DNA of 62,777 nt from an uncultured Planctomycetales bacterium (lineage in GTDB: Bacteria > Omnitrophota > Gorgyraeia > Gygaellales > Profunditerraquicolaceae). Position numbers: made by a program. The stretch covers positions 1 to 62,777 of the forward strand of contig CAZAPM010000003.1 in the NCBI GenBank assembly GCA_964487475.1. The letters run 5' to 3'. Each line of letters opens with the position of its first letter. The stretch's first letter is position 1. Shown piece by piece: positions 43,994 to 52,900 of this stretch.

Positions 43994-46900
43994 TCATGCA
44001 TACCGCGCATCTACGGGCACTGCCATACCAATAGCGCAACTCAACGCCGTATTTCAAAGCCTCGTGCGCCCTCCGTTGCCTGGCCCCACTCCACCTGCGT
44101 TTCCCGCACATTTCGGGCAAACGCCACCGAGAGCCTTTCCAGGAATTGCTGCACCAGCTCCCGCTCACCTTCGGCAACTATCTCCACCGAACCGTCAGCC
44201 AGGTTCCTCACCCACCCCGCAAGGCCCAACTCGCCGGCAATTTCCCTCGCCGTATAACGGAATCCCACTCCCTGCACCTTGCCACTGAATACTGCACGGG
44301 CCTGACTGATCATACTGCACAAGACCGATTATTAAAATAAGTCGGGGCGACAGGACTTGAACCTGTGACCTCAGCGTCCCGAACGCTGCGCTCTACCAAG
44401 CTGAGCCACGCCCCGAAGCACAATCTACCTCAAGTGTTACTGCGAAGTCCCGCCATCTTTGATCCACGAAGTGGATCAGGCGGGACGAAACACCCAACTG
44501 CGAGCAAATCAGTTGGGACGAAGCCCCGCGGATCAGCAGGGGCGAAATCCTTGTCCCACGAAGTGGATCAGGCGGGACGAAACACCCCACTGCGAGCGGA
44601 TCAGCAGGGGCGAAATCCTTGTCCCGCGAAACGGATCACTCGGGACGAATTTCAATTAGTATACCATCAAACCGCGGCAATATCAACGCTTACTGCGACG
44701 GACGCGAGCCGGCGAAAGTTCGCACCCTAAGTCCCAGTACACGCACTCGACACGGGCATTTTCCGTGATCTTGATCTCGGATTCCGCACCCACGCACGCC
44801 ACAGCATGCCATATCCTTTTTTTCAGCACCACCGGACGGTCGAGCAGGAACGCCTCTATCTGCGAGGCTTTGCGGGAAGTCGAAAGGTAGAGCACGCTGC
44901 GGCCCTTGACCGGCTCGAAACTCTCCCAGGTCCCGGGATGCTGCTCGAGACGGGCCACCTTCCGGTCGCGCACCACCAGATAGGCGATGCGCCAGCCGAC
45001 CTTGCCGTGTTCCGTGACCACGATGCAAAAAAGATTGCGCCCTTTTCTGTCGGGAAGGGACGCCGGGTATTCGATCACCCGTCCGTACTTCTTGAACGCT
45101 GCAGGAGTTATTCTCTTGATCATCCGGTATAAGAAAAAGCCCGGCGCATGTTGCCATTTGCCGGGCTTTTAGGTTCCACTATATTAAAGTTTCGTCACCC
45201 TGACTGCCTGGTCGCCTTTAGGCCCCTGTTCGATATCGAACTCCACGTCCTGGCCCTCTTCGAGGTTCTTGTACCCGTCCATCTGGATGGCGCTGAAGTG
45301 CACGAACACGTCATTGCCGGATTCCGGGGTGATGAAACCGTAGCCCTTCTTTGCGTTGAACCACTTCACTTTACCCTTTGCCATTACCGCATTCCTCCTA
45401 TTGACCATGCGGGCCAGCGGGGAACCATTCCCTCTTCATCAAAGCCCGCACTTGAGGCGATATACTACCAAGAGCCGGAGTTCTTGTCAATACAAATCGC
45501 TACAGGATCGGGTCCATGGTCAGCGCCGGATGGCCGGCCTTCTGCAGGAACTCCAGCAGCTCTTCGGAGGAAGTGGCGACCGTCTCATCGGCGATCATCT
45601 CGAAGAATTCCGGCATCCCGATCTCCCGGCACCGCGCCTTGAGCTTATCCGCCAGGAGCTCCTTCAAATCCTTTGGCATCCACACCAGCCGCGTGAGCCC
45701 GCCTTCCGCGCTGATGAATTTCCGGCTGGTCACGTAGAGCTTCCCGACTCCGAGGAACCCCGGGGTCTGCACTCCCCCTCCCACCGATCCGGCCAGGGTG
45801 GTGAAGGTCATGCCGCAGGGGGTCATCCCGGAGTAATCCCGGTGCACCACCATCACTCCGTTGGCTTCGGGGATGATGGCGATGATGGACTCGAAACACC
45901 CGCAGGAGGACTGGGGCGCGTCCATCAGAGAATACATGCTCACCGTCTCCATGGTCTTGTTGGATTTCTGGCAGAAGAAGTCGTTGATCCCCGCCCACTG
46001 GCCCAGCCGCTCGTCCACGGTCTGCCCTTTTTTCACCGGCTGGTTCGGCCCGGTGGGAGTGATCTCGTAGGAAGCTTTTCCGTCGAGCCAGGAGTATGCG
46101 CCGCAAAGGCCCAGCCGCTCGGGAGTGATGATGCACACGTGATTGGGAGCGAAGGACTGGCACAGCAGGCAGGAGTAATACGTATCCACGCTCTCGTCCG
46201 TCATGCCGCGCATCCGCTCGTCGCGCTCGTCATATGACTTGCGCGCCTGCGCCACGATGCGGGCGACGTCCTCCTGCCGCGTGTAGAGCTTGACCTGCAC
46301 TTTATCCACGATGGCATGGTACTCCTGGTGCAGCATGGCGTGGAGCACGGTGCCGAAATGTTTGAGCCGAAACCCCTTGCCGAAGGCGTCCTGGCTCACC
46401 CTCACCCAGATCATGTCGCGCTGCCCCACATGCATGATCCCCATGGCGTAATTCATGAAACGGTGGATCTGGCGCTCCAGTATGGGCTCGAAATCCTTCT
46501 GCATCTTGCGGCCCGCCACTTCCACCACGATCGCCAGGGGAAGCGACTTCACCCCCGGAGGCAGCGCATCGAGGTCAGGCCCGACGAGCTCGAAGGCGCC
46601 GTCCTCGACGCCGGAAAGGTCCTTCATCGAAAGGAATTCGCATGCCGTGCTGGCCTTGCCTCCGAATTCGACCGCCAGCTGCTCCTTGCGCACCCGTTCG
46701 CCCTCGAACGCCGCGGCATACGGCACCGGTACGGGGACCTCGCTCACTTTCACTTTGAGGCCCCGCACCTCCACGCACTTCGCGGCCAGCTTGCGGTAAT
46801 CCTTCTCCGTCACCAGCGCTTCATACAGCGTGGTATCGATCTTGGGCAGCTGCGGCACCTCCAGGTCCGTCACGATGGGAAACCCCATCGCCAGAACCCC

Positions 46901-49900: not shown

Positions 49901-52900
49901 ATGTTGCTCGTCCCGCAGGGGTGTCCCCCTCAGGGGCACCCGGCTTACAAGGTAGTGCCGGTGCTCCGCTTTCTGCGGAGCGTCCCTAAAGCTGTTAAAG
50001 CTGGAGCTTGGCGGCTTCCACGACGTTGCGCATGAGAATGGTCACTGTCAGCGGCCCCACCCCTCCGGGAACCGGCGTGATGAACGACGCGCGCTTCTGC
50101 GCCTCCTCGAACTCCACATCACCTACCAGCCGCTCGCCCACCCGGCTGATCCCCACGTCTATGACGATCGCGCCCGGCCGGATCCACTCCCCCTTGACCA
50201 GCCCGGGTTTCCCCACCGCCACCACCAGCACCTCGGCGCGGCGCACATACTCCTCCAGCTTGCCGGCGTGAGAAGTGCCGATATGACACACGGAAACGGT
50301 GGCGAACTTATCCAGCAGCAGCAGGCATAACGGCTTGCCCACGATCTCGCTATGGCCGATCACCACCGCATCCTTCCCGTAAAGATCGACCCCCGTCGAA
50401 TTCAGGATCTCCATCACAGAGGCCGCGGTGCAGGGCACCAGCCTGGTCTTGCCCGAGAAAAGCCTCCCGATGTTCAAAGGGTGCATCCCCTCCACGTCCT
50501 TCTCCGGGGCGATGAAACGGCTGATCTTCTTGTAATCCATATGCTGCGGCAGCGGCATCTGCACGATGACCCCGGTCACTTCGGGATCGGCATTGAGCTT
50601 CTGGATGTACGCCACCAGCTCCGCCTCGTGGATCTCCGCCTCGAGATGCTCCAGCCGGTACTCGATGCCGATATCCTGCGCCGCTTTTTCCTGCGACTTG
50701 CAGTAGGTGCAGGCTCCGGCATTCATGCCCACCAGCACGCTCACCAGGACGGGGCGCTTCGGAAGGGACGCCACATCCTGGCGCAGCTGCTCTCTGAGCT
50801 TTTCCGCGATGACCTTACCCTCTAATAATTGCGCCAATCTTCTCCTCCGTTTCTTCACGGATCCTCGCCACCTCGTCCGCGATCGGCTCAAGTTCATCCA
50901 GGGTCTTTCCGGAAAGGGTCGCATCCCCGCGCGCCTGCAGGTTGATCCGCACGTTCACCATCCCTGCGGCGCACCCCGCCTCGAGCAGCGCCGCAGCCAC
51001 CGCCAGATCGCTGGCCAGCCTCACGTTGGACTTGCCGATAAGCCTGGGGCATAACGCGATACAGGCGCGGGAAAGACGCACGATGGAAAGAGGGACCTGC
51101 AGCATCCCGGAAAGGTCTTTATCCCGGAACACGCTCACGTCAAGGTCGACAAGGGAAAGCAGTTCGCGGCGGGCTTTCTCGGAAGCCTCCAGGCAGGAGG
51201 AGAGCTCCTCCTCGAAGGAGGCATACTCCGGCTTCCCCTGGGAATAACGCACCACCATACTGATCAGGGATGCGCCCAAGGCCGAGGTCAGGGCAGCGGC
51301 AGAGCCGCCCCCGGGCGCGGGAATCCTGGCGCTGAGGTCATCGAGATACTGCTGCAGGGAACCGAGTGCGTAACGTGTGGAAGGATTAGTAGGCATATGC
51401 GGACGGCGCCTCGAATGCGTGCCTGTAAAGGTCGATCCTGACGCCCTGCTCCTCGTATAGGATGCTCACCACGTCAAAACGAACACGCGAATCCATAAGC
51501 CGGCGCGCCTTAAGGTACGTCAGCGCGGTGCGCACGATGCGCCTTTGCTTATCCGGCGAAACCGCTTCCTGAGGAAGCGCTTTACACCCGGCGCTGCGCG
51601 CCTTCACCTCGATGAAACAGAGACAGTCTCCCTCGCGCGCGATAATATCCACTTCCCCGCGCGCTGCGCGGAAGTTGCGCTGCAGCAGCACATACCCCTG
51701 CGATTCCAGAAACGCCGCGGCGTCGTTTTCCGCGCGGCTGCCCAGGGAATCCCGCATGCCCGCCTCACAAGAAACTGCGCCGGTGGATAGGTGCCGGGCC
51801 GTATTGCGCCAATGCCCGGTAATGCGCCGCCGTGCCGTATCCCTTATGCCCGCCGAAACCGTATCCGGGATAGACCCGGTCGTACACGCACATCACGCGG
51901 TCGCGCAGGACCTTCGCCACGATCGAGGCACAGGCGATGGAAAGGCTTTTACGGTCGCCGTCTACCACCGCGGTACAGGGATGCCCGCCGCGCAACGGCA
52001 CGTTACCGTCCACCAGCAGATGCACCCTGCCTTGCGCGCCCGCCTTCGCCGCCCGCGCCAGCAGGGAATCCACCGCCTGCTCCATCGCGATAAGCGTCGC
52101 CTGGAGGATATTGAGGCGGTCGATCGCGAGCTCATTGACCACCCCTACCCCGCAAAAACACTTCTCCTGGATCTGATGGAACGCGGTTTCTCTCTGACGA
52201 GGGGAAAGCTTCTTGGAATCATCGATACGGCAGGAAAAATCCGTTGCCTTCAGGGACACTGCGGCGGCAAACACCGGCCCTGCCAGAGGGCCGCGTCCTG
52301 CCTCGTCCACGCCGATGATGACCGAACATCCCGATTCGCGAAGCGAATTCTCGTAGGTGAGCACCGCCGTGCCTGATTACGGAACTTATGCGGGTTTTGC
52401 TTCAGCCGCGCTCTCGATCTTGGTGGCGCGCTTTCCGACCTTGGAACGCAGATAATACAGCTTTGCCCGGTGCACCTTGCCGGAACGGACCAGTTCGATG
52501 CGTTCGATGCTGGGAGTATACAGCGGGAAGACCCTCTCGATACCCTCGCCGAAGGACACCTTGCGCACGGTGAAACTGCTGCGGATCCCGCTGCCGTTCT
52601 TCGCGATCACCACGCCTTCATAAGGGTGCAGACGGACCTTATTGTCGCCTTCCACGATCTTGGTCAGCACGCGGACGGTATCCCCCACATTGAATTTGGG
52701 CATTTCTTTAGAAGTATATGCCGATTCAACCAATTTGATCTTATCCATTGCGATGTTTCTCCTTCCTAGGTTCCATTGATAACAGGTCAGGCCTGTGTGT
52801 TGACGTACGTGCCAGGGATTGCTGCTGCCGCCACTGCGCGATCTTGGTATGATCGCCGCTCAAAAGCACCTGCGGCACCTTAAGCCCCCTGTAAAGAGCG

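What a model noticed while it worked through the whole genome (the two positions that open the first line are those of the whole stretch)
45500..51396. Wood-Ljungdahl remnant locked in the oxidative direction: PurU replaces Fhs, no CODH, core MetE as methyl sink
The genome keeps ACS, CoFeSP, AcsE, MetF and FolD but has no CO dehydrogenase and no formate-THF ligase; instead it has the one-way deformylase PurU, and its only methionine synthase is a short core MetE. The pathway likely cleaves acetyl-CoA to feed methyl groups to methionine and C1 pools, venting formate and CO, rather than making acetate. New: overturns the acetogen/CO-consumer reading for this clade and shows a clean Fhs-for-PurU swap that flips pathway direction.
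Evidence so far: 31 order genomes: Fhs 16, PurU 12, both 0, neither 3; CODH catalytic 8/31, none here; ACS/CdhC in 85% of family; core MetE g01483 (C14:20793) in 31/31, no MetH/MetE Pfam here; acsC-acsE operon C7:42904-48657, purU C2:7080.
(Added by a program. Inside this text positions count along the whole contig: contig position 1 is position 1 of the stretch shown here. "Call 12" and the like, gene names such as g00115 and contig names such as C1 are that model's own, and its searches are not shown. The text may have been shortened before it was handed on; [...] marks where a part breaks off. The agent that wrote the report below was given it as the finding of a first reader that could run no searches.)

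Follow-up and report, generated by a model that had tools for sequence, protein, structure and literature searches.

The report
Stand-alone acetyl-CoA synthase serving methionine
This uncultured Omnitrophota bacterium has lost the CO dehydrogenase and formate-uptake genes from its carbon-fixation operon and keeps a remodelled acetyl-CoA synthase that likely helps supply methyl groups for methionine, with a changed CO-pocket residue that marks CO-dehydrogenase-free enzymes in several lineages; the pathway is not shown to be locked in reverse.

Summary
The gene inventory holds. fhs and cooS-cooF are deleted from their ancestral sites in gap-free DNA. Among 151 order genomes (Omnitrophota), Fhs is in 76, PurU in 53, both in none.

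'Locked oxidative' is not supported:
- PurU blocks only formate uptake.
- GlyA and glycine cleavage can supply methylene-THF, and MetF favours reduction.
- Pta-AckA remain.
- PurU also occurs with CODH (3 genomes) and without ACS (2).

Methionine as the purpose is well supported. All 8 genomes with MetH-length matches lack ACS and core MetE. Seven genomes with dead or missing ACS keep core MetE, so folate can feed it. The cleavage mechanism is known from Dehalococcoides; the CODH-less state is published for Omnitrophota and was noted earlier by this scan.

New here: the ACS N-terminal domain comes in two types that track CODH and appear swapped by recombination inside acsB. The CO-alcove Phe (Moorella F229) is Tyr in 54 of 63 CODH-less and 0 of 35 CODH-bearing ACS. 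In a wider scan, 1 of 20 Tyr-ACS genomes had CODH, against 57 of 66 Phe-ACS. Direction (cleavage or CO scavenging) is untested.

The parts
45500..47683 (-). acsB, acetyl-CoA synthase (727 aa) with the CODH-less type of N-terminal domain (residues about 1-310); six A-cluster Cys and the F512-equivalent intact; CO-alcove Phe (Moorella F229) is Tyr223
   Evidence: AlphaFold model matches solved ACS, N-domain TM 0.91 to C. autoethanogenum
47665..48612 (-). short flavoprotein (Pyr_redox_2, 315 aa), relative of the long FNOR of the cooS-cooF unit; NAD-binding glycine motif and C-terminal part lost; fused to ACS in 21 relatives, yet kept next to metF where acsB is deleted
48612..48617 (-). empty site of cooS-cooF (metF stop abuts the flavoprotein start)
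   Evidence: synteny; bridged by public contigs
48617..49486 (-). metF, methylene-THF reductase (MetFV type inferred; a stand-alone metV lies at C2:34531-35184 with no Hdr/Mvh-like genes seen beside it)
49576..49902 (-). DMT_6 (DUF486) membrane protein, a variable insert between folD and metF
49995..50837 (-). folD, methylene-THF dehydrogenase/cyclohydrolase
50815..51396 (-). FchA-like cyclohydrolase (FTCD_C; below the NCBIfam FchA cut-off)
51386..51396 (-). empty site of fhs (yraN overlaps the fchA ORF)
51386..56374 (-). conserved upstream anchor queA-tgt-(tylF insert)-trmD-rplS-rnhB-yraN that fixes the site across the order (queA, tgt, trmD, rplS, rnhB named from sequence and recall)

Best explanation
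The window holds a Wood-Ljungdahl operon that has lost fhs and cooS-cooF and likely works as a biosynthetic methyl supply for methionine, not as a reversed catabolic pathway. Inferred steps: (1) core MetE (MesB type) takes its methyl group from methyl-CoFeSP; (2) methyl-CoFeSP can be made from folate, with serine (GlyA) and glycine cleavage giving methylene-THF, MetF reducing it and AcsE passing it on; (3) the intact stand-alone ACS likely adds a second source by cleaving acetyl-CoA to methyl-CoFeSP and CO, as in Dehalococcoides, pulled by methionine synthesis; (4) PurU likely acts as a low-flux overflow that frees THF from surplus 10-formyl-THF and only rules out formate uptake. The ACS carries a separate N-terminal domain type, with Tyr at the CO alcove, that goes with the absence of CODH and appears to be exchanged between lineages by recombination inside acsB.
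For: MetH-length matches (about 800 aa; one truncated) occur in exactly the 8 genomes lacking both ACS and core MetE; 3 of 3 of them checked also lack CoFeSP; two independent events on the tree. G002 keeps CoFeSP, AcsE, MetF and core MetE with acsB deleted in place and no MetH; six genomes have lost A-cluster Cys594, 3 of 3 checked lack the cooC/acsF gene, and all keep core MetE: folate can feed methionine. All 9 ACS-less and all 6 dead-ACS genomes have GcvPB, against 62 of 151 overall; independent pairs go 4.0 the same way and 0.0 the other, which fits ACS being a C1 source. Core MetE has the MesB zinc set H222/C224/D244/C319 (PMC7857596) and lies next to porC in 15 of 19 relatives. No formate consumer or channel was found in G000: no Fhs, Mo-FDH, PFL, NrdD, PurT or FNT channel; FNT channels occur in 14 of 151, all CODH-bearing. 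N-domain split: 79 diagnostic columns, all within residues 4-306; 1 change on the N-domain tree against 13 on the tree of residues 309-726 and 11 on the flank-gene tree.
Against: Direction of ACS is not shown. With MetF, AcsE, GlyA and glycine cleavage present, G000 does not need ACS for methionine. The ACS-loss/GCS link rests on five events (sign test median p 0.125). Loss of ACS with MetH gain may reflect loss of the whole corrinoid module for other reasons. Free ACS fixing outside CO has experimental precedent (bioRxiv 10.1101/2025.10.29.685450). G000 has three matches to the FeFe-hydrogenase family, enzymes that CO inhibits (recalled), so CO release has a cost. Four genomes have a YitJ-length homocysteine methyltransferase and still keep ACS and core MetE.
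Confidence: 0.55

Rival explanations
1. CO scavenger: ACS runs forward, joining outside CO to methyl groups made from serine/glycine by MetF and AcsE. This gives acetyl-CoA, ATP through Pta-AckA, an electron sink and protection of hydrogenases. The Tyr alcove would raise CO affinity.
For: All steps are downhill and encoded. The A-cluster and the other alcove positions are kept. A larger aromatic at this site (F229W) binds CO 80-fold tighter (PMC11321310). Free-form ACS fixes CO in T. indicus and Archaeoglobus. Seymour 2023 reads CODH-less Omnitrophota as CO users.
Against: Gain of full MetH goes with loss of ACS in 8 of 8 genomes, and ACS dies only where glycine cleavage is present (15 of 15), the opposite of what a methyl sink predicts. 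The formate-fed version of this reading is impossible in the Fhs-less genomes.
Confidence: 0.27
2. One reading: the pathway is locked oxidative. Acetyl-CoA is cleaved, the methyl group is oxidised through MetF and FolD to feed the folate C1 pools, and formate and CO are vented; PurU flips the direction.
For: Fhs and PurU never co-occur (0 of 151); 50 of 53 PurU genomes lack CODH; ACS loss goes with glycine cleavage; an Rnf-like operon is present (named from sequence).
Against: Methyl-THF oxidation (-200 mV) cannot reduce NAD+ (-320 mV) without reverse electron transport (PMC6895022), and no Hdr/Mvh-like genes lie beside metV. PurU persists without ACS in G069 and G106 and with CODH in G029, G046, G085. 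PurU is not linked to CODH loss in independent pairs (0.8 same, 0.2 opposite, 6.0 unchanged). 0 of 53 PurU genomes have a formate channel. GlyA is in 144 of 151.
Confidence: 0.1
3. ACS is a slowly decaying relic with no current flux; methionine is made entirely from folate.
For: ACS is dead in 6 genomes and gone in 9; N-domain identity among CODH-less ACS is lower (0.67) than among CODH-bearing ones (0.81).
Against: 91 of 98 full-length ACS keep all six Cys and the gate Phe; the CODH-less N-domain has its own invariant columns across families; cooC/acsF is kept in G000 and in G135 (intact ACS) but lost where ACS is dead.
Confidence: 0.05
4. fhs and cooS are present but hidden in assembly gaps, so the organism is an ordinary acetogen.
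For: The genome is a 36-contig MAG with N gaps; G082 shows an fhs-cooC-cooS-cooF-FNOR-acsB module can sit at another locus.
Against: Both ancestral sites are empty in gap-free DNA bridged by independent contigs; 0 of 53 PurU genomes have Fhs; 0 of 54 Tyr-alcove ACS in the order come with CODH.
Confidence: 0.03

Closest known systems
Incomplete Wood-Ljungdahl pathway of Dehalococcoides mccartyi (AcsB + CoFeSP + core-MetE/MesB; PMC7005905, PMC7857596)
   Same: No CODH; ACS, CoFeSP and a core methionine synthase with an H-C-D-C zinc set; no MetH or MetE.
   Different: D. mccartyi lacks MetF and AcsE and has Fhs, so cleavage is its only methyl source. Here MetF, MetV and AcsE are present, Fhs is gone, PurU and glycine cleavage are present, so direction is open. 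Its ACS alcove residue could not be retrieved.
Partial WLP of Omnitrophota, Velamenicoccus archaeovorus type (Seymour et al. 2023, PMC10066038)
   Same: ACS without AcsA/CooS/CooF, no formate dehydrogenase, Pta-Ack and Rnf.
   Different: That paper suggests formate and CO as substrates and notes reversibility; the passages read do not mention PurU, loss of Fhs, core MetE or two ACS types. Formate uptake is excluded in the 75 of 151 genomes with no Fhs found.
Bacterial AcsB of CODH/ACS (Moorella 1OAO/2Z8Y, Carboxydothermus 1RU3, C. autoethanogenum 6YTT) and its CO alcove (PMC11321310)
   Same: Three-domain fold, six A-cluster Cys, alcove Gly/Ile/Val and the gate Phe.
   Different: Alcove F229 is Tyr; the N-terminal domain is a separate clade only 43% identical to the CODH-linked type of the same order, while the other domains are 71-77% identical.
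PurU formyl-THF deformylase as a THF-recycling overflow (E. coli role, recalled, not from a call)
   Same: Over the TIGR00655 and NF004684 cut-offs; glycine cleavage present in 39 of 53 PurU genomes.
   Different: No PurT here to use the formate; strict exclusion with Fhs in an anaerobe that keeps ACS.

Membership tests
Bacterial acetyl-CoA synthase AcsB | Score over the family cut-off, three domains, six A-cluster cysteines, gate Phe | tested here: met
   NF040764 962 bits; C505, C508, C517, C527, C594, C596, F511; fold match
Bacterial acetyl-CoA synthase AcsB | Alcove Phe equivalent to Moorella F229 | tested here: not met
   Tyr223 (position mapped with the mutagenesis primer context in PMC11321310)
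Complete Wood-Ljungdahl pathway (acetogen) | CODH catalytic subunit | tested here: not met
   empty site
Complete Wood-Ljungdahl pathway (acetogen) | Formate-THF ligase and formate dehydrogenase | tested here: not met
Dehalococcoides-type incomplete WLP | ACS + CoFeSP + core MetE, no CODH, no MetH/MetE | tested here: met
Dehalococcoides-type incomplete WLP | No MetF and no AcsE (forces acetyl-CoA cleavage) | tested here: not met
   metF in the window; AcsE NF005719 305 bits over 259
Dehalococcoides-type incomplete WLP | Methionine methyl from acetyl C2, CO released | not testable with these tools
   needs isotope labelling
MesB core methionine synthase | About 340 aa catalytic domain only, H-C-D-C zinc ligands, co-occurrence with CoFeSP | tested here: met
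   346 aa; H222, C224, D244, C319 invariant in 20 of 20 aligned; CoFeSP in G000 and G002, missing in 3 of 3 MesB-less genomes checked
MesB core methionine synthase | At least 173 bits against DET0516 (criterion of PMC7857596) | not tested
   the Dehalococcoides sequence could not be fetched
PurU formyl-THF deformylase | Over equivalog cut-off across the full length | tested here: met
   TIGR00655 304 bits over 286, positions 2-280
Reversed (oxidative) WLP of acetate oxidisers | CODH to oxidise CO and a coupling that drives methyl-THF oxidation | tested here: not met
   no CODH; metV stands alone, no Hdr/Mvh-like neighbours seen; Hdr was not searched genome-wide

The most novel reading that the evidence does not exclude
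Bacteria that lose CODH repeatedly retune acetyl-CoA synthase into a stand-alone enzyme: the CO-alcove Phe becomes Tyr on several separate branches (this Omnitrophota order, other Omnitrophota, Nitrospirota, Armatimonadota, Auribacterota, Methanothermococcus). In this order a dedicated CODH-free N-terminal domain and the cooS-cooF-FNOR-N-domain cassette replace each other by recombination inside acsB, switching lineages between a full CODH/ACS and a CO-exchanging methyl donor for methionine. One residue would then predict how an ACS handles CO.
Probability: 0.4. Interest if true: 0.78.

Novelty: new variant of a known kind. Interest (0 to 1): 0.55.

Why it matters
Many metagenome studies count acsB as a sign of carbon fixation or acetogenesis. 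In this order most genomes (107 of 151) have no CODH, half have no Fhs, and the remnant tracks methionine synthesis, so the published formate-plus-CO reading cannot hold for the Fhs-less half. The Tyr alcove gives a natural variant at a site shown to tune CO affinity over 2000-fold, and a one-mutation test of what ACS does without CODH. The swap point inside acsB means that whole-gene ACS trees mislead about species history and about CODH partnership.

Tried and rejected
Formate supply for anaerobic ribonucleotide reductase as the reason for PurU: NrdD in 7 of 151, not in G000; rejected. Formate for PurT: no match over cut-off in 5 of 5 genomes; rejected. In-place fhs-to-purU replacement: purU lies in varied neighbourhoods in 23 loci, none at the fhs site; rejected. 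PurU linked to CODH loss or to glycine cleavage after allowing for kinship: no clear signal (p 1 and 0.625). Fhs/PurU exclusion in independent pairs: 4.1 same, 0.0 opposite, p 0.125, too few pairs to reach 0.05. Weak CODH hit at C6:68566 is a hybrid-cluster protein. Complex prediction of the ACS N-domain with the short flavoprotein: no answer. The Dehalococcoides ACS could not be fetched: two pattern scans gave no Dehalococcoides record, a paper search for another primer gave nothing, and the one Dehalococcoidia genome reached had no ACS. No RNA holder listed. A words search of earlier scan notes was empty. Paper searches that found no prior report: purU + Wood-Ljungdahl + deformylase (5 listings, none on this clade), purU + fhs + futile cycle (0), F229Y (0 occurrences in 4 listings), Velamenicoccus with ACS/methionine terms (0 occurrences of the name in 20 listings); the library lacks most subscription papers, and supplements of Seymour 2023 were not read.
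Full report
Observation. The window lies on contig C3 of a 1.87 Mb, 36-contig genome, 94.64% complete; named homologs place it in Candidatus Omnitrophota. Positions 45500-51396 hold acsB (45500-47683, 727 aa), a 315-aa flavoprotein, metF, a DMT gene, folD and an FchA-like gene. Fhs, CooS and MetH were not found by family search or by tblastn with relatives' proteins.

The losses are real. In relatives the order is queA-tgt-trmD-rplS-rnhB-yraN-fhs-fchA-folD-metF-cooS-cooF-FNOR-acsB (80 regions fetched). Here yraN runs into fchA and metF into the short flavoprotein, with no N in this stretch. 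Contigs of public runs from two studies bridge both junctions (one may be the source). A module elsewhere cannot be excluded (G082 has one), but it is unlikely given the tallies below.

Distribution in 151 order genomes, G000 included. Fhs over cut-off 76, PurU over cut-off 53, both 0, neither 22. CODH 42 over cut-off plus 2 split genes (a C-terminal scrap at a contig end in G126 was not counted). States: PurU without CODH 50, PurU with CODH 3, Fhs with CODH 39, Fhs without CODH 37, neither 2 and 20. ACS matched in 142, core MetE in 139, GlyA in 144, GcvPB in 62, homocysteine methyltransferase domain in 12, FNT channel in 14, NrdD in 7. On an 87-genome tree of nine flank genes PurU changes at least 10 times, Fhs 12 and CODH 11. 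The exclusion of Fhs and PurU is therefore repeated, though independent pairs are too few for significance (p 0.125). A futile ATP-burning cycle is the simplest reason (inference). purU is never at the fhs site in 23 loci.

What the remnant is for. The 9 genomes without ACS include all 8 that have MetH-length matches, and those 8 also lack core MetE; the 3 checked lack CoFeSP too. They form two clades. Four further genomes lack a core MetE match but are fragmented or 65-90% complete. So the ACS/CoFeSP/core MetE module goes when another methionine synthase arrives. The core MetE has the MesB zinc ligands (PMC7857596, passages and section 8 read) and sits beside porC in 15 of 19 relatives. It is also known: Deobald et al. 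(PMC7005905, passages and part of the supplement read) describe acetyl-CoA cleavage to CO and methyl-CoFeSP for core-MetE in Dehalococcoides, which lacks MetF and AcsE.

Why 'locked oxidative' fails. PurU removes only the step from formate to formyl-THF. G000 has GlyA and GcvT/PA/PB, so methylene-THF can arise without ACS. MetF favours reduction: methyl-THF oxidation at -200 mV cannot reduce NAD+ at -320 mV without reverse electron transport (PMC6895022, passages read), and metV here has no Hdr/Mvh-like neighbours (Hdr was not searched genome-wide). Natural experiments need the reductive route. G002 (92% complete) keeps CoFeSP, AcsE, MetF and core MetE with acsB deleted in place and no MetH. 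Six genomes have lost A-cluster Cys594, 3 of 3 checked lack cooC/acsF, and all keep core MetE. G069 and G106 keep PurU with no ACS; G029, G046 and G085 keep PurU with cooS-cooF-FNOR-acsB. Formate has no found consumer or channel in G000; channels occur only in CODH-bearing genomes (14 of 14). Pta and AckA are present, so acetate can still be made from pyruvate.

Direction of ACS. For cleavage: all 15 genomes with missing or dead ACS have glycine cleavage, while only 1 of 44 CODH-bearing genomes does; G135, a close relative of the dead-ACS genus by genus code, has intact ACS, cooC/acsF and no GcvPB match. That suggests ACS is a C1 source that glycine cleavage can replace, but it rests on five events (4.0 pairs the same way, 0.0 opposite, p 0.125). 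For scavenging: the forward reaction is encoded and downhill, free ACS can fix outside CO (bioRxiv 10.1101/2025.10.29.685450, abstract and first quarter read), Seymour et al. read CODH-less Omnitrophota as formate and CO users while noting reversibility (PMC10066038, passages read), and G000 has FeFe-hydrogenase matches. I put cleavage-for-methionine with folate back-up at 0.55 and CO scavenging at 0.27.

What is new: two ACS N-domains. Of 98 near-full-length ACS, 35 come from CODH-bearing genomes. Comparing these with 54 CODH-less ones (7 diverged rows and 2 rows with the CODH-type domain set aside) gives 79 diagnostic columns, all in residues 4-306; identity between types is 0.43 there, against 0.71 and 0.77 in the other domains. 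On 92 rows (6 dead-ACS rows left out) the CODH type is one clade on the N-domain tree (37 of 37, support 0.999, 1 change), but needs 13 changes on the tree of residues 309-726, which follows the flank genes (11 changes on 70 genomes). For example G046 sits inside its CODH-less genus by the C-part and flank genes but has the CODH-type N-domain. The simplest reading is repeated recombination between metF and about residue 310 of acsB (inferred; FastTree only, no AU test). The CODH type is the widespread one in other phyla, so the CODH-less type is probably derived.

The alcove. Moorella F229 walls the CO alcove; F229A binds CO 30-fold weaker and F229W 80-fold tighter (PMC11321310, passages read). 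The equivalent residue is Phe in 35 of 35 CODH-bearing ACS and Tyr in 54 of 63 CODH-less ones, including the window's. To test this outside the order I scanned GTDB for the motif with Tyr (119 loci from about half the collection, 67 of them ACS) and chose 20 genomes, favouring distant ones: 1 of 20 had CooS-type CODH. The control scan with Phe (120 loci from 6 of 64 parts, 99 ACS) gave, for the 66 ACS loci among the first 80 listed, 37 with cooS in the locus and 20 of the other 29 with CODH in the genome, 57 of 66 in all. Tyr falls on several separate branches of a 90-row N-domain tree. Limits: completeness of those genomes is not given; about 8 of the 20 group with members of this order, some under Planctomycetia labels; archaeal CdhA was not searched in the three Methanothermococcus genomes; many CODH-less ACS keep Phe, so Tyr predicts CODH absence but not the reverse. 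The effect of Tyr on CO binding is unknown, and a search found no F229Y report.

The short flavoprotein has lost its NAD-binding motif and is fused to ACS in 21 CODH-less genomes. Yet it stays beside metF in 8 of 8 readable ACS-less loci, in G008 where acsB has moved away, and in G029 beside a full CODH cassette. Its partner is unresolved.

Earlier scan notes (read) already report the CODH deletion, the flavoprotein relic and a rebuilt docking domain in other genomes of this group. Other papers opened: PMC8542988 and PMC4676187 (passages; nothing used beyond background), PMC5574268 (passages; nothing used). PurU's irreversibility and overflow role, CO inhibition of FeFe hydrogenases and the names of several housekeeping genes are recalled, not from a call.

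Verdict. A real Dehalococcoides-like remnant serving methionine, in a clade where the CODH-less state is published. The 'direction flip by PurU' is overstated. The lasting value is the Fhs/PurU/MetH/GCS pattern and the Tyr-alcove, swappable N-domain ACS, which can be tested with one mutant. New variant of a known kind; interest 0.55.

Noticed in passing
L073 (G082:C15:1-15000): A genome of a PurU genus carries fhs-cooC-cooS-cooF-FNOR-acsB at a different locus, next to a 904-aa oxidoreductase-like gene and apparent molybdenum-cofactor genes, and has no PurU: probably a re-acquired full module.
   Followed up: partly
L070, L130-L132 (genus g4), L113, L133: ACS genes with lost A-cluster cysteines but full-length open frames, kept over long branches; cooC/acsF not found in 3 of 3 checked. 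A non-catalytic role is possible.
   Followed up: partly
L215-L220, L222, L197: The flavoprotein is kept next to metF after acsB is deleted in 8 genomes, which argues against a purely ACS-linked role.
   Followed up: partly
L278, L301, L345, L346, L350 (Methanothermococcus): Bacterial-type ACS with an N-terminal domain and a Tyr alcove in methanogens; no CooS found in 3 of 3 checked, while a Methanocaldococcaceae relative has Phe and CooS.
   Followed up: partly
order-wide: Glycine cleavage and CODH are nearly exclusive (1 of 44 CODH genomes), and FNT formate channels occur only with CODH (14 of 14).
   Followed up: partly
L003:8794-12785 (C14:20793 onward): Core MetE lies directly upstream of the pyruvate:ferredoxin oxidoreductase genes here and next to porC in 15 of 19 relatives.
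   Followed up: partly
window 53484-54242 and 49576-49902: A TylF-like methyltransferase is inserted between tgt and trmD, and a DUF486 gene between folD and metF; both sites take varied inserts across the order.
   Followed up: no
protein P0041: A 1256-aa ACS of the CODH-less type with extra Pfam domains PF14890 and PF14528, probably an intein with a homing endonuclease (family names recalled).
   Followed up: no
window 44683-45123: Weak ureidoglycolate-lyase-like gene downstream of acsB, where relatives have a hypothetical gene and a polA-like gene; the downstream flank is rearranged here.
   Followed up: no
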